Source: Longimicrobiales bacterium (lineage in GTDB: Bacteria; Gemmatimonadota; Gemmatimonadetes; Longimicrobiales; Gaopeijiaceae). From it: a stretch of 64,000 bases of DNA. Position numbers and translations under genes: made by a program. A model generated the notes under the pieces. That model had not been told where the DNA came from, ran no database searches, and was given only the letters and a program-made list of their open reading frames with translations. Positions 26,359-64,000 of the stretch are shown here, piece by piece; positions within the stretch are counted from its first letter, which is position 1; the number at the start of each line of letters is the position of its first letter. The stretch covers positions 142,405-206,404 of the forward strand of contig JAPKBW010000001.1 of assembly GCA_028823235.1 (NCBI GenBank), given 5' to 3'.

Positions 26359-27354
26359 TTACTCCGAAGCCACCGCCGACACTACGACTGTGATGTCCTG
26401 GTCGTGGTAAAGCGCTCCGTCGTCACCCCTGGCCCGCAAGATGTACGTCCCCGGCATATCGAAGATCACGGAGGTATGCCAGACACCGTCCTCCGGGACA
26501 GCTGGGCGAGTCCAGAGCGGAGCCCAAGGTGAGTTGGAACCGTTCCGCGTGTCTTCCCAGGTTTTCACCTGCGGTGGATCGAACTCCGGGGTGGCCTCAC
26601 CCTCGGCGCGGTATACGAACCACGCGACGTGATGCCAGACGACCTTTTGGACCGTAATCCGAGTCGGAGGACGAAGCTGTCCCGCACTAAGCGCCGGAGG
26701 GCCTTCCATCTTGGCGAGGGCAGCAGCAGCACGCTCCTGGCGTGCCTCCCAGTTCTCGATCGCCTCCTCCAGGCCGTCGTCCGTCATGCGGACTGCGAGT
26801 TCGAGCGACTGACCGACCAAAACCTGATACTCGGTGCCGCCTTCCACGGTAATCTCGGGCACGTTATTCGCTCGGGTCTTAGCGTTACTGGCGCCGACTC
26901 CCAGAGCACCGGTCTCTGACGCAACCACGATATTGTCGATGACCTGATCGATACCCATGGTCCCGTAAGCGTACTGAGTTTTCCCGGCTGAGGTGAGCGT
27001 CCAGACAATCTCCTCATCCTCTCCGAGGTCGGCAGGCACCGGAACCGTAAAGACGAAACGGTTGCGGCGTGGTCGAAAGTGTGTGGGTTGGCCCTGATCA
27101 GCCGCGATTGGTGAGAAAAAGTTGTCCTCACCGACAGAGACGTCGACCTCCTCCTGCCAGTTCCGGTTCATGTAACCGAACACCATGGATTTCGAGCCGT
27201 CTTCGTGCTGGATCCACCCCTCGTACGCCGGGGCAACGTCCTGCCCTCTCTGGTACGCGATCTGACCGTCGAGCGCGGCGCCATCGGCCAACGTGATGCC
27301 GGCCGCAATCGAAAAGGCCGTGCTGAGGCGGGCCAAGGTCAAACCGTGTTTCAT
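26359..27354 (-). CDS. Exported protein of unknown family, partner of the heme-c/Cu-monooxygenase-like protein (copy 1)
   Basis: ATG at 27354 overlaps the upstream stop (ATGA). Signal-like N-terminus. Paralogous to 60542-61507 (shared APxxxGxxxxxDGxxxxxFGxxNRN...GEDNF...GGQPTxF...VPADxxxD core and a beta-rich C-terminus). Confidence 0.7.
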   Translation of the reverse strand: MKHGLTLARLSTAFSIAAGITLADGAALDGQIAYQRGQDVAPAYEGWIQHEDGSKSMVFGYMNRNWQEEVDVSVGEDNFFSPIAADQGQPTHFRPRRNRFVFTVPVPADLGEDEEIVWTLTSAGKTQYAYGTMGIDQVIDNIVVASETGALGVGASNAKTRANNVPEITVEGGTEYQVLVGQSLELAVRMTDDGLEEAIENWEARQERAAAALAKMEGPPALSAGQLRPPTRITVQKVVWHHVAWFVYRAEGEATPEFDPPQVKTWEDTRNGSNSPWAPLWTRPAVPEDGVWHTSVIFDMPGTYILRARGDDGALYHDQDITVVVSAVASE

Positions 27355-28754
27355 CGACCACCTGCCGGTATGACCGAACAGAGCGGACACCCAATCACAT
27401 GATCGTTGGGGCCGAGATCAAGACGTTCACGGCGCTCGGCCATCGCAGCTTCGAACTGCTCCTGTGACATGGACAACCTCATGCCGAGATCGATGAACAT
27501 GTTGGCGACCGATCTGTTGCCGGAGCCCTGCCAGTTCCGCGGGTCGGGGATGTTGAAGTTCTCTTCGGTGTTGTTCATGTAGCCGGTGATGTGAAGCACT
27601 GTGCCGGCCGGAAGGAGTGGCTGATAGTTCTCCTCAAACGTGTAGGTGCGCACCCAGTTGTGGTCGTACCCAACGCAGGAAAGCGTCTCAACGTTGAAGC
27701 CCCAGATCGCCTCGAGGCACATGCGGTCGCCCGGGGCGTGCAGGTGCGGCTCGAAGGAAACGACCTTGGTCGGTGTCCGGAGGACGGTGTACGCGTGCAG
27801 CTCCTGGTCCTTCTCCCCGGCCTGGATGTCAATGTCAGACCCGTTACCGAGGCCGAGAATCGACTCGCGATAGGTTGGCTCGTACCCCTCCGGGTGGAAG
27901 GTGAAGCCGAACTGAAGCCTCGCCCGCGTATCGAGACCGTTCGAATGCAGGTGTGTCGAGTTGGACACGAGCTTGGAACCCGTGCGCAGAAGTCGGCCGG
28001 CATCCTGGTCAAAGACGTCACCGTTACGCCCGACTTCGTGGACCGGCCACACCGTCCGACGACCCTCGCCTTCCTCGTTGAGCGTGCTCCACACCATGTG
28101 ATGAATCACGAACCGGCCGCCCACGGTCTCGCGCCCGTTGCCTTCCGATGGCACGTCATTGATTTCCCTGATCTCGACGGATTTTACATACCGGTCCTCG
28201 AGAATCGGAATGTCGATCGGCGCGATGTCACCCCACCAGTCGGGCTCACCGGCCTCAACTAGAAACTCGTCGGTCGTCACGACCACGTCCGGCTCGCCGA
28301 GTGTCCAGGCGCCCGAATCGTCGAACTCGAGCGGAGCGGGCATGTCGGCCGGGTCCCCTTCCGGGGCACCGCTGCTGGCCCAGTCAGCGATCATTGCAAT
28401 CTCATCATCGGTCAGCGACGGATCATTCTTGAAGTGCTGAATCCCGATGTCCTTCTCGACGTACCACGGAGGCATGGTGCCCATGCGGTCGCGAATGGCC
28501 GTGCGTCGGGCGATTCGCCCCGCATACCGCCGCGCATCCTCGTACCGGACGAGCGACATCGGCGCGACGCCGTTCGGACGGTGACAGTTCACGCAGCTGT
28601 TCTGGAAAATTGGCGCGATATCGCGACTGAACGTCACATCGTTAGGCTCACCACCTTCCTGAGCGGCAGCCGGCGTAGCAGCACAGGCTGCCAGCATGGC
28701 CACCGCGGCGGTGGTCCCAGTAGTCGATAGGCGTGGCATTGTGAACTTGGACAT
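27351..28754 (-). CDS. Exported fusion protein: N-terminal c-type heme domain (CxxCH) + PHM/DBH-like type-II copper monooxygenase domains (copy 1)
   Basis: AAGGA Shine-Dalgarno sits 5 nt before ATG 28754, with a signal peptide. RDIAPIFQNSCVNCH is a heme-c site. Ligand pattern VIHHM ... THLH ... PHLH ... ANMF with PHM-like spacing, plus the C-domain signature HNW...TFEENYQPLLPAGTVLHITGYMNNTE. Confidence 0.7.
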   Translation of the reverse strand: MSKFTMPRLSTTGTTAAVAMLAACAATPAAAQEGGEPNDVTFSRDIAPIFQNSCVNCHRPNGVAPMSLVRYEDARRYAGRIARRTAIRDRMGTMPPWYVEKDIGIQHFKNDPSLTDDEIAMIADWASSGAPEGDPADMPAPLEFDDSGAWTLGEPDVVVTTDEFLVEAGEPDWWGDIAPIDIPILEDRYVKSVEIREINDVPSEGNGRETVGGRFVIHHMVWSTLNEEGEGRRTVWPVHEVGRNGDVFDQDAGRLLRTGSKLVSNSTHLHSNGLDTRARLQFGFTFHPEGYEPTYRESILGLGNGSDIDIQAGEKDQELHAYTVLRTPTKVVSFEPHLHAPGDRMCLEAIWGFNVETLSCVGYDHNWVRTYTFEENYQPLLPAGTVLHITGYMNNTEENFNIPDPRNWQGSGNRSVANMFIDLGMRLSMSQEQFEAAMAERRERLDLGPNDHVIGCPLCSVIPAGGR

Positions 28755-59125: not shown

Positions 59126-60472
59126 TCATCGGTCGGGCTGTTCGCTAATCAGTCGAGCCGCACGGTCAGCCTTGATCTTCTCCATCCCGTCTTCATCGAG
59201 ATGGGTTATGGCAAGCCATGTATGCGACATCTCGTCGGCCGTGCGATCGCCAATACCCACCCACTGGTCGGGGTCCGGGTTGTACCGGTTGTTCTCGGTG
59301 TTGTCGTACCAACCGGTCACGATCAACTGGTCACCTACTTCCAGTAGCGGCGCAACGTCGTCTTCGTAGATGTGGCTGTGGTGCCACAGAGCACTCCAGT
59401 TCGAAACCATGCTCACCGTTTCCCGTCGGCCATTTGCTCGCAGGACCTGGAGCGACATCGCAACCAGTCGCGTGTGACCGTGCGGCTGGAAACTGTCGAT
59501 TCGCACCGGGGTGTCGAACGAATGGAAACCTTGAGTCATCAGCGTTCCGTGAGGAGCGATGTCATACCCACGGCCGCCGTTCAGGAAATACAAACTCAGC
59601 GTCTGGTCGTATTTTCCTTCGTATTCCTCCGGATGGAACCAGATTCCGATCTCAACCTGATCGTCCACGAGGTCCACGCCGTTCGGCCAGTAGTGAATGT
59701 CGAACGCAACGTCGGAACCGGCGGGAGCCCTCCGGCACGCACCCTCTGGCACAATCTCGCCGACCTTCCCAAGGGCGTACTCCGAGAGTCGGCCTGCGCT
59801 TTGACCGTCGACCCGGAAAGACGAGTTGGCGTGGTGAGCCACAGCCCGCCCTTCGATCGAGGGCTTAGTCTCAATGGCCATGATGCACCGATCGTCCGTG
59901 ATCCCGGTCGGAACCAGAGGCCGCCACCAGCGGTCCTGACCGACCTCAGGAACGTCGTAAGGGTCCGACCTGATGATCAAATCCGGCTCACCGAACTGCC
60001 CTGCCAAACCGAACTCGGCGGGGTCAGGCCACTCGACAGGCGCCGGCAAATCCGCAGGGTCGCCCTCAGGCGAGCCAGCTGCGACCCAGGCCGTGATGGT
60101 CGCGATATCTTCCTCGCTCATCCGCCAGTCTTCCTTGAGATCCTGAATGCCGACATCCGTGTCGTACTGATACGGAGGCATGTCCCGGCCCTCGACCATG
60201 CGGCTCATGCGGCGAGCGTAGCGTCGTGCATCCTGATACGTCATGAGCGACATCGGCCCGATGGCGCCCGGCTGGTGACAAACCTGGCAGTTCGCCTGCA
60301 AGATGGGAGCGACGTCCCGCGTGAAGGTCAGCTCCGCCGACGCATCCGGACTCGGCCCAGTCATCTGCTGGGCAGCGAGTTCACCTGTATGGCCGGCCCC
60401 GAGGGTCACGAGAAGGGCTAGTACGCCCGTCGTAACACTCTGCGGCATCGACCGATGGATGGACATTTGCAT
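59126..60472 (-). CDS. Exported fusion protein: N-terminal c-type heme domain (CxxCH) + PHM/DBH-like type-II copper monooxygenase domains (copy 2)
   Basis: AGGAG lies 6 nt upstream of ATG 60472, with a signal peptide. Heme-c site RDVAPILQANCQVCH. Ligand pattern AVAHHA ... DIHY ... PHGH ... TADEMS, and the C-domain signature SNW...YEDDVAPLLEVGDQLIVTGWYDNTE. Confidence 0.7.
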   Translation of the reverse strand: MQMSIHRSMPQSVTTGVLALLVTLGAGHTGELAAQQMTGPSPDASAELTFTRDVAPILQANCQVCHQPGAIGPMSLMTYQDARRYARRMSRMVEGRDMPPYQYDTDVGIQDLKEDWRMSEEDIATITAWVAAGSPEGDPADLPAPVEWPDPAEFGLAGQFGEPDLIIRSDPYDVPEVGQDRWWRPLVPTGITDDRCIMAIETKPSIEGRAVAHHANSSFRVDGQSAGRLSEYALGKVGEIVPEGACRRAPAGSDVAFDIHYWPNGVDLVDDQVEIGIWFHPEEYEGKYDQTLSLYFLNGGRGYDIAPHGTLMTQGFHSFDTPVRIDSFQPHGHTRLVAMSLQVLRANGRRETVSMVSNWSALWHHSHIYEDDVAPLLEVGDQLIVTGWYDNTENNRYNPDPDQWVGIGDRTADEMSHTWLAITHLDEDGMEKIKADRAARLISEQPDR

Positions 60473-60541
60473 GGTCAACTCCTCTCAAGACTCACTGGGC
60501 TTGTCCGCGATGGACCGGACCCTAATCCATAATACTGCCTG

Positions 60542-61507
60542 CTACTCGTTCACGCTCACGACTACGTATCCATTCGACCAGCAGCACTGCTGACCGGGCA
60601 TACTATCCGGAGCGCCGAAGTTGTCGATACGGATCCGGATCACGTACTCACCTGGCGTGTCGAACGTCGCCGTGAATTGTCCCCGATTGGCCAGCGGCCC
60701 TTCGTTGGGGATCGGGACGACATCCGTGGTATTCACCGGCCCTGGGCCGAACGGGCGAGCCCGTCCGCGCGCCGGCGCGGCGTTTGCCGGTGCCTCTAGC
60801 ATCGACTCAAAGGCGATCATGCCGCCGACAGGTCCCTGGTGCTTCCAGAGGGTCATGTTGACCAGACCGAGGTCGCGCTCGCCGCGGTCCTCCGCCCAGA
60901 AACGAACCTCTACTGGCTCTCCGACCTTGGTGGTCAGAACCTCGGGATGCTCGACACCTCCGATACCCCAGCCCGCTAGATCCTCTTCGCTGAAGCGAAT
61001 GCCGGGACGGAGCGAGCCCGCGGCCATCGCGCCACTGCTCAGCTCATAGGCGCCCTTGATGATCGGGCCGGGTGATTCCAACCTGCCCGGGACGCGGGTC
61101 GTGTAGCCATCGGTCGTCACGGTCCACCATACGTCACCGTCGAAATCGGCCGGAACCACCACGCCGAAGGCGCCCCGTTCGCGTGGCCCTCCGAAGCCTG
61201 AGTACCCGACGACCGGAAACGTAGTTGGCTGACCGCCGTCAAACTCCGACGGCTCAATGAAGTTGTCCTCGCCGAGTGCGATCTCGATCAAGTCTGAGTC
61301 ATTTCGGTTCAGAAAGCCGAACGACAAGGTGTAGGTGCCGTCCGCGTTCGGGTAGAAACCGTCGAAATAGGGTGCGACGAAGTTCTCGTTCGCGTTGGAG
61401 GGGGCCAGCGGAAACTCCCGCTGCGTCCAGTCCTGGGCGTCGGCACCTACCGTCAGAGTGGCCGCACACACCACGGTGAGCGTCAGGGTGGTCTTGAGTC
61501 GCGTCAC
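60542..61507 (-). CDS. Exported protein of unknown family, partner of the heme-c/Cu-monooxygenase-like protein (copy 2)
   Basis: GGAGGA lies 5-6 nt upstream of GTG 61507, with signal peptide LTLTVVCAATLTVGADA. Paralogous to 26359-27354. Confidence 0.7.
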   Translation of the reverse strand: MTRLKTTLTLTVVCAATLTVGADAQDWTQREFPLAPSNANENFVAPYFDGFYPNADGTYTLSFGFLNRNDSDLIEIALGEDNFIEPSEFDGGQPTTFPVVGYSGFGGPRERGAFGVVVPADFDGDVWWTVTTDGYTTRVPGRLESPGPIIKGAYELSSGAMAAGSLRPGIRFSEEDLAGWGIGGVEHPEVLTTKVGEPVEVRFWAEDRGERDLGLVNMTLWKHQGPVGGMIAFESMLEAPANAAPARGRARPFGPGPVNTTDVVPIPNEGPLANRGQFTATFDTPGEYVIRIRIDNFGAPDSMPGQQCCWSNGYVVVSVNE

Positions 61508-61599
61508 TTGGTCCTCCTCACTGCTGTTCACCTGCTCGCAGGAAAGCTTAAGGATTGCAAGGCGATCCGAAAGGTGCGCGGACGCGGTGACCCACTGAG

Positions 61600-62082
61600 C
61601 TAACGGCGCATAGTGTCCATCGGCATGTCCGCTGCGTCGTCCATCGGCATGTCCATCGCTCCCCCCATTGGCATCTCCACTCCCATCTCCGCCAATCGCT
61701 GCATCTCGCGGAGCCCCTCCACCAGAGAATCAGGCACGAGCGTCCATGTGTAGTCGATGACGAGTTTGACCTCGTCCTCGCTGAGCGGAGACTGCGGCAT
61801 CGCCGGGGGCACGCCCGTGCGGATAATCCTGACGAGCTGATCCTCGGCATGGTGTCCGAGGTGCTCAAGGAGACTGGGCGGCTCTATGGGCAGGCTTGCC
61901 GCCATCGGACCGTTCCCGAGCCCAAGTTCCCCGTGGCACATCGCACAGTTTCCTGCGTAGAGCGCCTGACCTTCACTTACTTCGACGACCTCACGGTCCT
62001 CCGCCCCCCCGCAGGCGGTGAACGACATGGCGACACCGGCCAAGGCCGCGACGCTCCGAGACCAGATCGCTGTTCGTCTCAT
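61600..62082 (-). CDS. Lipoprotein c-type cytochrome with Met-rich C-terminal tail
   Basis: Lipobox MSFTACGG and heme site GNCAMCHG. The tail EMGVEMPMGGAMDMPMDDAADMPMDTM carries repeated MxM/MPM motifs. Confidence 0.8.
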   Translation of the reverse strand: MRRTAIWSRSVAALAGVAMSFTACGGAEDREVVEVSEGQALYAGNCAMCHGELGLGNGPMAASLPIEPPSLLEHLGHHAEDQLVRIIRTGVPPAMPQSPLSEDEVKLVIDYTWTLVPDSLVEGLREMQRLAEMGVEMPMGGAMDMPMDDAADMPMDTMRR

Positions 62083-62128
62083 CAGTTCCTCGCTCGGTTC
62101 GTCAATTCCACACGGTCTTCCTTGGCGG

Positions 62129-63076
62129 CTACGGCTTTGCCGAGTGCACCAGCACGGCGGTCACCAAAATGACGACAGCGGCAAGGGACACCTCCCATAC
62201 ACCACGGCGCCCAACCACTTCGGCTCCCTGCTCCGTGTCGCAGAGGGGCAGACCCCGTCTCCAGTTCAGGAAGCCAAGGCCAAAAATCACGAGAGCCAGT
62301 GCGACCTTCGCAGACAAGAGGCGCCCATAGGTCAGTGTCCACAGATCGGACACTGCATGCAAATGCTTCCACGCCAGTCCCGCGCCCATCGCCACGAGCG
62401 TGATCCCGCTGACCAACGCCAGAGGTGAGAAGCTTCGGATCTGTGAGGCGAAAATCGCCGGACTGTTCTCCCCACGAACGCGGCCGACTGTCAGGATCAC
62501 CGCCAGTGTGCCCATCCACACCCCCGCCGCGAGCGTGTGCGTCGCGTCCACGGTCACGGCAAGCGTTCGCGCCGAGTCGACACCCATCGCGTGTCCAGAC
62601 ATGGCGAGCGTTGCCGCGAGCGTGACGACGAGGGGCATAGCCACCGCCCATCCGGCGCTCAGAACGACCGGGGCCTCCGGCTGTGCCGCCTCAGAGGTAC
62701 TGCGACTTTTTCGACCCGCCAGCCACAAGGCCACGGCGAGCAGGGTCAGAACTGCGCCCTGGGCGATCCAGACGGAACCCCAAAAAATTTCAAAGAGCAG
62801 GAACGAGACGTCGTCCCGCAGGGGAACGAAGGGATCTCGAAAGCCCATGACCTGCACGACCAGCCGCAGGGTCCACGCTACGAAAAGAACGCCTGTCGAA
62901 ATCAGGCCGAGCGAGGCGACCCGTTGTTCTATACGCGTGATGGTTGTCGCATTTTCTGCGGCCAGCACCTTTAGCGCGCGAGGCATGACCAAGACCCGCC
63001 AGGCGACGCACCCCACGACCACTGTGGTACCGCTGAAGAGGAGCCACTGCTGGAACGTGGTCAGCGCAGTAATCAA
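62129..63076 (-). CDS. copD: CopD-family copper transport/resistance membrane protein
   Basis: Polytopic membrane protein directly after copC. TTG 63076 overlaps the copC stop (TTGA); the longest ORF starts at 63142. Confidence 0.75.
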   Translation of the reverse strand: MITALTTFQQWLLFSGTTVVVGCVAWRVLVMPRALKVLAAENATTITRIEQRVASLGLISTGVLFVAWTLRLVVQVMGFRDPFVPLRDDVSFLLFEIFWGSVWIAQGAVLTLLAVALWLAGRKSRSTSEAAQPEAPVVLSAGWAVAMPLVVTLAATLAMSGHAMGVDSARTLAVTVDATHTLAAGVWMGTLAVILTVGRVRGENSPAIFASQIRSFSPLALVSGITLVAMGAGLAWKHLHAVSDLWTLTYGRLLSAKVALALVIFGLGFLNWRRGLPLCDTEQGAEVVGRRGVWEVSLAAVVILVTAVLVHSAKP

Positions 63077-63492
63077 CGCCCGACAACGTCGAAGGTGAAC
63101 GAACCCCGCATCACATGGCCATCGTCCGCAATGCAGCGCCATTGAATGACATACTTCCCTCCAGACAGCCCGGCAGCGATCTGAACCGAGAGCTGCCTTG
63201 GATCCTCGGAGTCGGCCTCCGGCGGACTGCTCCGAATGAGCTGGCGGGAGGAGTTCACAACGCGGATCGAAGCGCCACGCATGAGCGGAGCCTCAGAAAA
63301 GAAAAGGCGGACCTCGCTCACTTCGCCGTCCAGGACTTCCTCGTCGGCCGGCGTCGAGGCATCGAGCGTGATGTGCGGGGCCACGTGTGGGATCACGGAA
63401 GCTGACCTCGCCGTCCCAGCAACCAGCAGAACCAAGCCGAGGGCAGTGAGCGCTACCCGGCGCGTTCGTTCAACGATATCTCGACGACTCAT
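63073..63492 (-). CDS. copC: CopC-domain periplasmic copper-binding protein
   Basis: ATG 63492, with signal peptide ending GTARSAS. The mature N-terminus ...HVAPHITLDASTPADEEVL has the His at the start of the CopC fold. C-terminal YVIQWRCIADDGHVMRGSFTF is the CopC signature. Confidence 0.8.
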   Translation of the reverse strand: MSRRDIVERTRRVALTALGLVLLVAGTARSASVIPHVAPHITLDASTPADEEVLDGEVSEVRLFFSEAPLMRGASIRVVNSSRQLIRSSPPEADSEDPRQLSVQIAAGLSGGKYVIQWRCIADDGHVMRGSFTFDVVGR

Positions 63493-63610
63493 CCCGTTTT
63501 TGCGTCCCGGCGTGTCCGGTTGCTGCCATGATTCTCTTCGGCCATCATGGGCCTGCCCCCTTGGTGCAACAACCCCCGACGCTCCAGCCTCGGAGAAGGT
63601 CGACTTCCGC

Positions 63611-64000
63611 ATGCTCATCAGGACCACACCTGCGTTTCTTGCAGCCCTCGTTCTCGCCCCGATCGCTGTCCAGCCAGTGACAGGACAGGACTCGGGTGAT
63701 CTCGGACGCGCGGAAGCACTCCAACGGCTCCAGCCAGATCTGTACGACCTCGTCGTGCGACTGGAGCGAGCGCATGGTGTGCTCCTCGGCGAACTCGCCC
63801 GAGAGGGACAAACGGTTCGTGAGAGTGGCGGCGACGTGCCGACTTTCGGCTTCGAGTTCGACATGGTCGACCGCTTGACGTTTCTGGTCCAGGCCGAGGG
63901 AACCTCTGAAGAGGAAGCAGATGCCGCAGAGTCGGGATACGCGGCCCTTGGTCCACGCGGTGCGGAGATCGTCCGGTGGGGTCAGGCATTCCAGAGAGAG
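63611..64000 (+). CDS. Hypothetical secreted protein, 5' part (runs off the right edge)
   Basis: My own translation from ATG 63611 gives MLIRTTPAFLAALVLAPIAVQPVTGQDSGDLGRAEALQRL..., open for 130 codons to the window end with a signal-peptide-like start. It is absent from the ORF track, presumably because it has no stop in the window. Confidence 0.4.
   Translation, partial: MLIRTTPAFLAALVLAPIAVQPVTGQDSGDLGRAEALQRLQPDLYDLVVRLERAHGVLLGELAREGQTVRESGGDVPTFGFEFDMVDRLTFLVQAEGTSEEEADAAESGYAALGPRGAEIVRWGQAFQRE

What the first reader, a model, noticed from the sequence alone, without database searches (positions are those of the whole stretch)
26359..28754. Second stand-alone copy of the heme-c/PHM-like + partner cassette, with inverted gene order
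Genes 27351-28754 and 26359-27354 are paralogs of 59126-60472 and 60542-61507. Here the heme/Cu gene comes first and is translationally coupled to the partner by an ATGA overlap. In the cop-linked copy the partner comes first.

The N-terminal heme domains are very similar, with two matching stretches:
- FSRDIAPIFQNSCVNCHRPNGVAPMSLVRYEDARRYA versus FTRDVAPILQANCQVCHQPGAIGPMSLMTYQDARRYA
- SGAPEGDPADMPAPLEF versus AGSPEGDPADLPAPVEW

The catalytic halves have diverged, but both keep HH / H / HxH / M positions. Copy 1 has an extra C-terminal GCPLCS (CxxC) that copy 2 lacks. It also has no neighbouring cop or cytochrome genes.

Retention of the two genes as a pair after duplication and rearrangement argues that they function together.
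Basis: seen in the sequence. Interest (0 to 1): 0.65.

Follow-up and report, generated by a model that had tools for sequence, protein, structure and literature searches.

The report
Cytochrome-fused copper monooxygenase with partner
This marine Gemmatimonadota genome carries two ancient copies of an uncharacterised two-gene module: a secreted enzyme resembling the copper hydroxylases that make animal peptide hormones and noradrenaline, but with a built-in cytochrome c, plus a partner protein that stays next to it or is fused to it across many bacteria.

Summary
Genes 27351-28754 (A1) and 26359-27354 (B1) overlap by ATGA and are full-length paralogs of 59126-60472 (A2) and 60542-61507 (B2). 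A1/A2 share 34% identity over 459 aa (E 9e-75). The B-type profiles match at E 3.7e-49.

A is a secreted monoheme cytochrome c domain fused to a peptidylglycine alpha-hydroxylating monooxygenase (PHM)/dopamine beta-hydroxylase (DBH)-type two-copper core. The top 31 Foldseek PDB hits are PHM or DBH. The motifs CxxCH, HH...H and HxH...M are kept in 139-140 of 140 relatives. B is a secreted tandem beta-sandwich protein with no conserved metal ligands and no family match.

The pairing is real:
- A is followed by B in 76 of 78 assessable type-1 loci.
- A and B are adjacent in 55 of 69 type-2 loci.
- A and B distances co-vary (r = 0.93).
- Natural A-B, B-A and B-A-B fusion proteins exist.

A-then-B is the usual order, so copy 2 is the inverted one. 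Its cop linkage is not conserved (0 of 80 loci). Marine metatranscriptome contigs cover both loci.

No Pfam or NCBIfam model reaches its cut-off, and no paper was found. The family has at least 1,710 50%-identity clusters at E <= 1e-30. The substrate is unknown.

The parts
27351..28754 (-). A1: 467-aa secreted protein. It has a signal peptide, a monoheme c-type cytochrome domain (about residues 40-135), a PHM/DBH-like two-domain copper core (about residues 150-445) and a C-terminal CxxC tail.
   Evidence: ORF. AAGGA lies 7 nt upstream of the ATG. Full-length paralog of A2. Foldseek top 31 PDB hits are PHM or DBH. More than 6,600 homologs, all unnamed or called 'cytochrome c'.
28581..28595 (-). 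Heme-attachment motif C54-V-N-C57-H58 of A1.
   Evidence: Invariant in 140 of 140 family members. Coordinates.
28473..28475 (-). M94 within the MPPW motif, the likely distal axial heme ligand (inferred).
   Evidence: Invariant in 140 of 140. The comparison with the MPP context of cytochrome c551 is from my own knowledge. There is a weak NCBIfam c551 hit.
28098..28103 (-). H218-H219, the proposed first two ligands of the electron-transfer copper (CuH-like site).
   Evidence: Conserved in 140 of 140 and 139 of 140. The pattern and spacing are as in PHM H107/H108 (own knowledge).
27951..27953 (-). H268, the proposed third CuH-like ligand.
   Evidence: Conserved in 140 of 140.
27738..27746 (-). 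H337-L-H339, the proposed HxH ligands of the catalytic copper (CuM-like site).
   Evidence: Each conserved in 139 of 140.
27498..27500 (-). M419, the proposed Met ligand of the CuM-like site.
   Evidence: Conserved in 140 of 140. It lies 80 residues after HxH, compared with 70 in PHM (own knowledge).
27378..27389 (-). C456-P-L-C459, the C-terminal CxxC specific to type-1 A subunits.
   Evidence: Present in 56 of 58 type-1 A proteins and 0 of 80 type-2 A proteins.
27351..27354 (-). ATGA overlap of the A1 stop and the B1 start, consistent with translational coupling.
   Evidence: Read directly from the sequence. RNA-derived contigs span it.
26359..27354 (-). B1: 331-aa secreted partner with tandem beta-sandwich (Ig-like) domains and no conserved His, Cys or Met.
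   Evidence: ORF. More than 5,100 homologs, all 'hypothetical'. No Pfam, NCBIfam or PDB sequence match. AF2 and Foldseek give only generic tandem Ig matches. It lies immediately downstream of A in 76 of 78 loci.
59126..60472 (-). A2: 448-aa type-2 paralog of A1. It has CQVCH at 60275-60289, HH at 59831-59836, PHGH at 59474-59485 and M415 at 59228-59230, within the DEMSH stretch 59222-59236. It has no C-terminal CxxC.
   Evidence: Weak Pfam Cu2_monoox_C hit, E 0.065.
60542..61507 (-). B2: 321-aa type-2 partner with a GTG start and a vicinal Cys-Cys at 60581-60586.
   Evidence: A vicinal CC is present in 39 of 40 type-2 partners and 2 of 57 type-1 partners.
61600..62082 (-). Monoheme cytochrome c upstream of B2, a candidate electron donor for copy 2.
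   Evidence: Pfam Cytochrome_CBB3, E 3.5e-12. An RNA-derived contig spans the junction between this gene and B2.
62129..63864 (-). copD-like gene (62129-63142) and copC-like gene (63073-63864 as the longest ORF; a later start near 63492 is more likely), upstream of copy 2.
   Evidence: Pfam CopD E 3.2e-12 and CopC E 1e-18. Alternative start. The linkage to the A/B pair is not conserved elsewhere.

Best explanation
The cassette encodes a periplasmic two-subunit copper monooxygenase.

Subunit A has a Sec signal peptide and a monoheme c-type cytochrome domain (CxxCH plus an invariant Met). This is fused to a catalytic core with the fold and ligand pattern of the noncoupled binuclear copper monooxygenases: peptidylglycine alpha-hydroxylating monooxygenase (PHM), dopamine beta-hydroxylase (DBH) and tyramine beta-monooxygenase. 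The proposed ligands are HH...H for the electron-transfer copper and HxH...M for the O2-activating copper.

Subunit B is a secreted protein made of two beta-sandwich domains. It has no conserved metal ligands. I infer that it binds A as a structural or substrate-selecting subunit.

Proposed mechanism, all inferred: periplasmic cytochrome c reduces the heme of A. The heme passes electrons one at a time to the first copper, doing the job that ascorbate does in the animal enzymes. The second copper activates O2 and hydroxylates a C-H bond of an unidentified periplasmic substrate.

Shown here:
- full-length paralogy of both gene pairs
- conserved adjacency of A and B
- natural A/B fusion proteins
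- co-variation of A and B distances
- PHM-like fold of A
- invariance of the candidate ligands
- coverage of both loci by metatranscriptome contigs

Inferred only: copper binding, the direction of electron flow, the reaction type and the role of B.

The two copies in this genome are members of two ancient subfamilies, each with its own co-inherited partner.
For: Paralogy.

ATGA overlap.

Fold: the AF2 model of A1 (pLDDT 65.5, pTM 0.64) gives Foldseek PDB hits 1-31 that are all PHM or DBH, with probability 1.00, E about 1e-7 and target-normalised TM-score (TMt) of 0.5-0.59 for most PHM hits.

Ligand pattern: in 140 family members CxxCH is 140/140, M94 140/140, H218 140/140, H219 139/140, H268 140/140, H337 139/140, H339 139/140 and M419 140/140.

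Bridging homologs: P0302 gives sub-threshold Pfam matches to both Cu2_monoox_C (E 3.7e-4) and Cu2_monooxygen (E 7e-3). P0292 and P0282 also touch Cu2_monoox_C.

Pairing:
- A then B on the same strand in 76 of 78 assessable type-1 loci from three phyla.
- A then B in 49 type-2 loci and B then A in 6, out of 69.
- No other widely conserved neighbour.
- Single polypeptides exist as A-B (P0258, P0261), B-A (P0265) and B(N-terminal domain)-A-B(C-terminal domain) (P0270). Eight of 150 representatives carry both domains.
- A and B pairwise distances correlate at r = 0.93, with 0 of 999 Mantel permutations reaching that value.
- A cysteine pair sits on A (C-terminal CxxC, 56 of 58) in type 1 and on B (vicinal CC, 39 of 40) in type 2.

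Expression: marine metatranscriptome contigs cover A1, B1, A2 and B2 and span the A1/B1, B2/A2 and cytochrome c/B2 junctions.

Both proteins have N-terminal signal-peptide-like sequences. This was judged by eye.
Against: - No Pfam or NCBIfam copper-monooxygenase model reaches its curated cut-off on A1 or A2. PDB sequence and profile searches do not find PHM.
- The AF2 model is only of moderate confidence, and the heme domain and several loops are poorly predicted.
- Foldseek printed no residue alignment, so equating the conserved His and Met residues with PHM's ligands rests on pattern and spacing, not on superposition.
- No copper content, activity or substrate is known.
- About 20% of type-2 A genes have no detectable B neighbour, and some occur as A-A arrays. 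B is therefore not universally required.
- The full-length fusions P0258, P0261 and P0270 have neither cysteine pair, so that pair is not essential across the whole superfamily.
Confidence: 0.62

Rival explanations
1. The module is a bacterial, split counterpart of peptidylglycine alpha-amidating monooxygenase. A (with B) hydroxylates the carbon next to an amide or amine nitrogen. A separate lyase resembling peptidyl-alpha-hydroxyglycine alpha-amidating lyase (PAL), built as an NHL-repeat beta-propeller, then cleaves the carbinolamide. The result is oxidative N-dealkylation or C-terminal amidation of periplasmic peptides or N-acyl-amino acids. This is a more specific version of the best explanation.
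For: One homologous cluster of secreted NHL six-bladed propellers lies within one to three genes of A/B in 12 of 160 related loci, 6 from the genome scan and 6 from the metagenome scan. Rat PAL (3fvz) matches the cluster representative (L131) in a single 160-residue stretch at E 1e-27. PAL's H585, H690 and R706 are aligned to identical residues (residue numbers from my own knowledge of PAL). Peptidases (M24, M28) flank the pairs in this window and in L081.
Against: No such propeller is encoded in this window. It is present in only 7.5% of loci, often on the opposite strand. PAL's catalytic Tyr654 aligns with His, and the third zinc ligand could not be aligned. TRIM-type NHL proteins score as well or better overall, and NCBIfam's best match is ScyF. 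Genome-wide background frequencies were not measured.
Confidence: 0.15
2. The module handles copper rather than an organic substrate. It might be a periplasmic Cu(I) oxidase, a reductase or a chaperone system that uses the His/Met sites and the cysteine pairs to bind copper and the heme to shuttle electrons, as part of the cop system.
For: Copy 2 lies directly downstream of copC, copD and a cytochrome c, and RNA-derived contigs span the cytochrome c/B2 junction. CxxC and vicinal-Cys motifs are common Cu(I) ligands (own knowledge), and one or the other is present in nearly all type-1 and type-2 pairs.
Against: None of the 80 type-2 loci, including the closest relative L081 (78% identity), has copC, copD or that cytochrome next to the pair. 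Copy 1 and 76 type-1 loci have no cop genes nearby. The conserved ligand set and fold are those of an O2-activating monooxygenase, not of known copper chaperones or multicopper oxidases. Several paralogous pairs per genome fit substrate diversification better than metal handling.
Confidence: 0.1
3. A works in the opposite direction, as a periplasmic dehydrogenase or oxidase. A substrate is oxidised at the metal site and electrons leave through the heme to the respiratory chain, as in cytochrome-c-fused nitrite reductases or sulfite dehydrogenase (own knowledge).
For: Fused c-type cytochrome domains in periplasmic enzymes often act as electron exits (own knowledge). PQQ-dependent dehydrogenases, which also feed cytochrome c, lie near the pair in 7 loci.
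Against: The His3 / His2Met two-site pattern is known only from O2-activating hydroxylases that consume two electrons (own knowledge). No additional cofactor-binding motif was found.
Confidence: 0.1
4. A and B are unrelated in function. Their adjacency in this genome, twice, is hitch-hiking or chance.
For: About 20% of type-2 A genes lack a detectable B neighbour. B has no recognisable functional motif.
Against: Adjacency holds in 131 of 147 assessable loci across three phyla while the flanking genes vary. Fusion proteins occur in both orders. Distances co-vary at r = 0.93. The cysteine pair is complementary between types. The start and stop codons overlap.
Confidence: 0.03

Closest known systems
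Peptidylglycine alpha-hydroxylating monooxygenase, dopamine beta-hydroxylase and tyramine beta-monooxygenase (Pfam Cu2_monooxygen PF01082 plus Cu2_monoox_C PF03712)
   Same: The catalytic core has the same two-beta-sandwich fold (Foldseek top 31 hits). The conserved pattern HH...H / HxH...M has similar spacing. It is a secreted, extracytoplasmic enzyme. More distant family members give weak, sub-threshold matches to both Pfam models.
   Different: It is bacterial and periplasmic. An N-terminal c-type cytochrome domain stands where the animal enzymes rely on soluble ascorbate, which is regenerated through cytochrome b561 (own knowledge). A dedicated beta-sandwich partner subunit is encoded next to it or fused to it. 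There is no DOMON domain and no PAL domain. Sequence identity is about 10%, and no curated model reaches its threshold.
AhpC/TSA (redoxin)-cytochrome c-PHM-like multidomain proteins of bacteria, such as P0292 found here
   Same: They share the same cytochrome c plus PHM-like unit. They were recovered by the same profile.
   Different: They carry N-terminal peroxiredoxin/thioredoxin-like domains and can be tandem duplications. No B domain was detected in them. They are also uncharacterised, as far as I could find.
Cellobiose dehydrogenase cytochrome domain feeding lytic polysaccharide monooxygenases (functional analogy only, from own knowledge)
   Same: A heme domain delivers single electrons to a mononuclear copper site that activates oxygen outside the cytoplasm.
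   Different: The folds and heme type are unrelated (b-type heme, and the copper site is a histidine brace). The heme and copper proteins are separate there, whereas here they are fused.
CopC/CopD copper-handling operons
   Same: Copy 2 lies in the same transcription direction directly downstream of copC, copD and a cytochrome c.
   Different: The linkage is absent from all 80 related type-2 loci and from copy 1. A and B have no similarity to Cop proteins.

Membership tests
PHM/DBH-type noncoupled binuclear copper monooxygenases | Catalytic core made of two beta-sandwich domains (PHM fold). | tested here: met
   The AF2 model of A1 searched with Foldseek against the PDB gives ranks 1-31 that are all PHM or DBH, with probability 1.00, E 1e-7 to 7e-6, and TMt mostly 0.5-0.59 for the PHM entries. 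Caveat: model pLDDT is 65.5.
PHM/DBH-type noncoupled binuclear copper monooxygenases | Electron-transfer copper site with three His ligands (HH plus a distant H). | tested here: met
   H218 is 140/140, H219 139/140 and H268 140/140. Equivalence to PHM H107/H108/H172 is inferred from pattern and spacing, not from a printed superposition.
PHM/DBH-type noncoupled binuclear copper monooxygenases | Catalytic copper site with HxH plus a distant Met. | tested here: met
   H337 is 139/140, H339 139/140 and M419 140/140. The same caveat applies.
PHM/DBH-type noncoupled binuclear copper monooxygenases | Score at or above Pfam's gathering threshold for Cu2_monooxygen or Cu2_monoox_C. | tested here: not met
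   A1 has no hit. A2 hits Cu2_monoox_C at E 0.065, 13.1 bits against a cut-off of 23. Only 1 of 21 aligned members has any hit. The best bridging homolog, P0302, scores 20.4 bits against 23.
PHM/DBH-type noncoupled binuclear copper monooxygenases | Binds two copper ions and carries out O2-dependent substrate hydroxylation using two external electrons. | not testable with these tools
   This needs purified protein, metal analysis and an assay.
Class I-like monoheme c-type cytochrome domain | CxxCH heme-attachment motif and a distal Met ligand. | tested here: met
   CxxCH is 140/140. M94, in MPP(W/Y), is 140/140. Its assignment as the axial ligand is inferred.
Class I-like monoheme c-type cytochrome domain | Score at or above the curated cut-off of a cytochrome c model. 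| tested here: not met
   Cytochrome_CBB3 scores 19.5 bits against a cut-off of 27, although all 21 of 21 aligned members give a weak hit. Weak PccH and c551 matches also appear.
Cop (CopC/CopD) copper-handling operon | Conserved genomic linkage of the pair with copC/copD. | tested here: not met
   None of the 80 type-2 loci has CopC, CopD or cytochrome c hits beside the pair. The closest relative, L081, is flanked by succinate dehydrogenase and an M28 peptidase. Copy 1 has none.
Bifunctional PAM-like amidation system (PHM plus PAL) | A PAL-type lyase encoded with the hydroxylase. | tested here: not met
   There is no PAL-like gene in this window. A PAL-like NHL propeller lies near the pair in only 12 of 160 related loci.
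Bifunctional PAM-like amidation system (PHM plus PAL) | PAL catalytic residues (three His zinc ligands, Tyr654, Arg706) in the neighbouring propeller. | tested here: inconclusive
   H585, H690 and R706 align to identical residues. Tyr654 aligns with His. The third His could not be aligned.
Any described family for partner B | A match to a curated protein family or to a solved structure by sequence. | tested here: not met
   Pfam gives nothing. NCBIfam gives only a 14-bit fragment. PDB sequence search gives only chance-level hits. Fold search gives only generic tandem Ig matches from a low-confidence model.

The most novel reading that the evidence does not exclude
The A/B pair is the founding example of a large family of periplasmic heme-copper monooxygenases that is abundant in the environment. 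These enzymes would take electrons directly from the respiratory cytochrome c pool, with no ascorbate, to hydroxylate C-H bonds of extracytoplasmic organic molecules. B, fused to A in some lineages, would set substrate specificity. Several diverged pairs per genome, occasionally teamed with PAL-like lyases or PQQ dehydrogenases, would form a periplasmic oxidative route for breaking down peptides, amines or recalcitrant dissolved organic matter in marine Gemmatimonadota, Acidobacteriota and Gammaproteobacteria.
Probability: 0.35. Interest if true: 0.8.

Novelty: new variant of a known kind. Interest (0 to 1): 0.62.

Why it matters
PHM/DBH-type copper hydroxylases are textbook animal enzymes. 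As far as my own knowledge and eight full-text literature searches show, their bacterial relatives are unstudied.

This version has three notable features:
- It replaces the ascorbate supply with a fused cytochrome c.
- It adds a dedicated partner subunit.
- It is very common. It was found in at least 590 species-level genomes from three phyla, forms 1,710 clusters at 50% identity with E <= 1e-30, and has more than 6,600 close relatives in metagenomes. It is also covered by ocean metatranscriptome contigs.

If the proposed chemistry is right, it would give:
- a self-contained, respiratory-chain-driven C-H hydroxylase of biotechnological interest
- a new player in marine and soil organic-matter turnover
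- a natural system for studying how electrons reach the two separated copper sites

The two paralogous pairs in one genome, the natural fusions and the cysteine pair that switches subunit give ready-made constructs and hypotheses for biochemistry.

Tried and rejected
- **Sequence searches against the PDB.** Searches with A1, with the A-family profile and with the type-2 profile did not recover PHM. Only the heme domain gave weak hits, to hydrazine synthase alpha and to PccH.
- **Curated family libraries.** Pfam and NCBIfam give nothing above their cut-offs for any of the four proteins.
- **Partner B structure.** The AF2 model is of low confidence (pLDDT 63) and Foldseek returns only generic tandem-Ig hits. 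I draw no functional inference from it.
- **Cop linkage as a functional clue.** Rejected, because the linkage is not conserved.
- **Promoter and terminator scans.** Consensus scans around copy 1 found nothing meaningful: one weak promoter-like site on the wrong strand and no terminators. The scan may simply not suit this phylum.
- **PAL catalytic residues.** I tried to confirm the third zinc ligand of PAL in the neighbouring NHL propeller by searching its C-terminal part. PAL was not among the matches, so PAL membership stays inconclusive.
- **Lipoprotein reading of A1.** The sequence L-A-A-C in the signal peptide fits a lipobox, but orthologs lack the Cys, so I rejected it.
- **Literature.** Eight full-text searches found no paper on cytochrome-c-fused or partnered bacterial PHM-like enzymes. 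One review that uses the term 'PHM-like' refers only to human DBH.
- **An odd RNA contig.** One chimeric-looking RNA contig (X26 record 9, which skips 147 nt) matches by only 21 and 28 nt. I disregarded it.


Full report
**What is there**

- A1: 27351-28754, 467 aa
- B1: 26359-27354, 331 aa
- A2: 59126-60472, 448 aa
- B2: 60542-61507, 321 aa, with a GTG start

A1's stop and B1's start form a 4-nt ATGA overlap. A1's ATG is preceded by AAGGA.

Copy 1 is flanked by genes on the opposite strand: a MaoC dehydratase downstream and an M24 peptidase upstream. No cop or cytochrome gene is nearby. Copy 2 follows copC, copD and a monoheme cytochrome c in the same direction.

**Paralogy**

A1 and A2 align over essentially their whole length: 34% identity, 459 columns, E 9e-75.

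B1 and B2 align by BLASTP only over the N-terminal 130 residues (33%, E 6e-18). Profiles built from 41 type-1 and 40 type-2 partners align at probability 100%, E 3.7e-49, over residues 35-327 vs 39-321. The partners are full-length homologs whose C-terminal halves have diverged. Type 1 carries an extra helical insertion.

**What A is**

Curated libraries say almost nothing. There are only sub-threshold cytochrome c hits, plus a Cu2_monoox_C hit at E 0.065 for A2. PDB sequence searches find nothing.

An AF2 model built from 21 homologs (pLDDT 65.5, pTM 0.64) was searched with Foldseek against the PDB. It returns PHM or human DBH as hits 1-31. Probability is 1.00 and E about 1e-7. Most PHM hits have a target-normalised TM-score of 0.5-0.59.

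In an alignment of 140 A-family proteins from both subfamilies, these residues are kept in 139-140 sequences:
- C54xxC57H58
- M94, in an MPP(W/Y) context
- H218-H219
- H268
- H337-x-H339
- M419

The HH...H and HxH...M pattern, with spacings of 49, 69 and 80 residues, parallels PHM's H107/H108/H172 and H242/H244/M314. That comparison is from my own knowledge. The residue equivalence is inferred from pattern and spacing, because Foldseek's residue alignment was not available.

More distant relatives found by a profile search give weak matches to both halves of the Pfam copper-monooxygenase family: P0302 matches Cu2_monoox_C at E 3.7e-4 and Cu2_monooxygen at E 7e-3. Some of these relatives are fused to peroxiredoxin-like or EF-hand domains.

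Both A and B begin with signal-peptide-like sequences. This was judged by eye. A c-type heme in any case requires export from the cytoplasm.

A is therefore best described as a periplasmic cytochrome c fused to a PHM-like two-copper core.

**What B is**

B has more than 5,100 homologs, all 'hypothetical'. It has no family or PDB match.

The low-confidence model (pLDDT 63) shows tandem beta-sandwich domains. Of the 35 columns conserved at 90% or more in 99 B sequences, none is His, Cys or Met. A catalytic metal site in B is therefore unlikely. I infer a structural or substrate-binding role.

**Do the two genes belong together?**

A scan of one genome per species found at least 590 genomes encoding a type-1 A. 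They belong to Gemmatimonadota, Acidobacteriota (Vicinamibacterales and Terriglobia) and Gammaproteobacteria (Pseudohongiella and other Pseudomonadales).

- In 76 of the 78 type-1 loci with enough flanking DNA, a B gene lies immediately downstream on the same strand.
- For type 2, 80 metagenome loci gave 49 with A then B, 6 with B then A, and 14 with room on both sides but no B. Several of those 14 are A-A arrays.
- Apart from A and B, no neighbour is widely shared. The most frequent real one occurs in 12 of 160 loci.

The profile search also turned up single polypeptides that contain both proteins:
- A-B: P0258 and P0261
- B-A: P0265
- B N-terminal domain, then A, then B C-terminal domain: P0270

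Eight of the 150 listed representatives carry both domains.

Pairwise distances among 79 A proteins and their adjacent B proteins correlate at r = 0.93, with 0 of 999 Mantel permutations reaching that value. Within the subfamilies the correlations are 0.88 and 0.93. Each B's nearest relative belongs to the same subfamily as its A. Shared species history contributes to this correlation. The clean split of within-genome paralogs nevertheless shows that A and B duplicated together.

A further pattern links the subunits. Type-1 A proteins end in a CxxC motif (56 of 58) and their partners lack cysteine pairs (2 of 57). Type-2 A proteins never have the CxxC (0 of 80), but their partners carry a vicinal Cys-Cys near the C-terminus (39 of 40). 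The window's two copies follow this rule: A1 has CPLC at 27378-27389 and B2 has CC at 60581-60586. The full-length fusions P0258, P0261 and P0270 have neither motif, so the pair is not universal in the wider superfamily.

**Gene order and the cop link**

A then B is the majority order in both subfamilies. The B2-then-A2 order of copy 2 recurs in 6 of the 80 type-2 loci. These include its three closest relatives (L081-L083, 70-78% identity), although L082 holds only the last 29 codons of B. A B-then-A type-2 pair also lies in the type-1 locus L051.

It is therefore copy 2, not copy 1, that is rearranged.

None of the 80 type-2 loci has copC, copD or the cytochrome c beside the pair. In L081 the pair sits between succinate dehydrogenase genes and an M28 peptidase.

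Both subfamilies occur in several phyla and sometimes side by side in one locus (L051, L054, L151). Mean between-type distance is 0.70, compared with 0.42-0.44 within types. The duplication is therefore old.

**Expression**

The locus is present at 97-100% of sampled words in 12 seawater or marine metagenome runs, and at lower shares in several more.

Contigs assembled from marine metatranscriptomes, 95-99% identical, cover A1 and B1. Two of them span the A1/B1 junction (27156-27403 and 27235-27422). Others cover A2, B2, the cytochrome c and copD, and span the B2/A2 gap and the cytochrome c/B2 junction.

This is consistent with co-transcription. Contig depth is not a measure of expression, and DNA carry-over cannot be excluded.

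**Mechanism**

I propose that reduced periplasmic cytochrome c reduces the heme of A. For copy 2, the donor may be the cytochrome encoded just upstream. The heme passes electrons singly to the three-His copper, and the His2Met copper activates O2 to hydroxylate a substrate held with the help of B. In animals the same chemistry is fed by ascorbate (own knowledge).

Only the fold, the ligand conservation, the location outside the cytoplasm and the A/B association are supported by data here. Copper binding, electron direction, reaction type and substrate are all inferred.

Hints about the substrate are weak:
- A secreted NHL propeller lies near the pair in 12 of 160 loci. In the sequence tested (L131), blades 2-4 align in one stretch with rat PAL (E 1e-27), with two of PAL's zinc histidines and Arg706 conserved but Tyr654 replaced by His.
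- PQQ dehydrogenases lie nearby in 7 loci.
- Peptidases flank the pairs in this window and in L081.
- Several diverged pairs can occur in one genome.

These hints fit oxidative processing of peptides, amines or alcohol-yielding substrates in the periplasm, but they do not establish it.

**Known or new**

The catalytic core is a distant relative of a well-known enzyme family. The architecture, with a fused cytochrome c and an obligate or fused beta-sandwich partner, is not covered above threshold by any Pfam or NCBIfam model. Sources name these proteins only 'hypothetical' or 'cytochrome c'. Eight literature searches found no description.

I rate it a new variant of a known kind. The finding as written, a second copy with inverted order, is a modest observation. 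Its value is that it points to a very large, expressed and uncharacterised enzyme family with clear, testable predictions.

Noticed in passing
window 63611-64000 (+), runs off the window end: An ORF with a signal peptide (MLIRTTPAFLAALVLAPIAVQP...) is 40% identical over 89 aa to a roughly 380-aa secreted protein with no Pfam or NCBIfam match (cluster C5). That protein lies next to type-2 A/B pairs in 10 of 80 metagenome loci. In the window it lies upstream of, and divergent from, the run of minus-strand genes copC-copD-cytochrome c-B2-A2.
   Followed up: partly
L031, L034, L037, L051, L078, L080, L093, L095, L107, L117, L131, L151 (for example L131:4587-5657): A secreted NHL-repeat six-bladed propeller lies within one to three genes of the A/B pair in 12 of 160 loci. 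In L131, the sequence tested, rat PAL (3fvz) aligns in one 160-residue stretch (E 1e-27), with H585, H690 and R706 conserved and Tyr654 replaced by His. There is no copy in the window.
   Followed up: partly
window 27378-27389 (A1 CPLC) and 60581-60586 (B2 CC); related loci L001-L160: The cysteine pair sits on complementary subunits. A C-terminal CxxC is on A in type 1 (56 of 58) but never in type 2 (0 of 80). A vicinal Cys-Cys is on B in type 2 (39 of 40) but rarely in type 1 (2 of 57). This suggests one shared site in the complex that is supplied by either subunit.
   Followed up: partly
proteins P0258, P0261, P0265, P0270 (representatives search): Natural single-chain fusions of A and B exist in both orders. 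One of them has A inserted between the two domains of B.
   Followed up: yes
L152, L159, L114, L147, L149, L156: Some type-2 loci carry arrays such as B-A-A-A. In others A is followed by a distant A-like protein (26-28% identity) instead of B, so a single B may serve several A paralogs or be dispensable.
   Followed up: partly
L022, L031, L034, L051, L119, L133, L150: Periplasmic PQQ-dependent dehydrogenases (the L034 representative matches Pfam PQQ at E 5e-150) lie near the A/B pair in 7 loci.
   Followed up: no
window 63073-63864 (-) and 62129-63142 (-): The longest copC ORF has a roughly 124-residue N-terminal extension with no domain. A start at M125 (coordinate 63492), followed by a signal-peptide-like stretch, is more plausible. 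As called, copD overlaps the end of copC by 70 nt, so the copD start is probably also later.
   Followed up: partly
proteins P0292 and P0282: More distant superfamily members are tandem duplications of the cytochrome c plus PHM-like unit. P0292 is fused to AhpC/TSA peroxiredoxin-like domains and P0282 to EF-hand domains.
   Followed up: no
window 59126-63525; RNA runs X25-X28: Marine metatranscriptome contigs, 95-100% identical, cover A2, B2, the upstream cytochrome c, copD and copC, as well as copy 1. Both loci therefore appear to be transcribed in the ocean by close relatives of this organism.
   Followed up: partly
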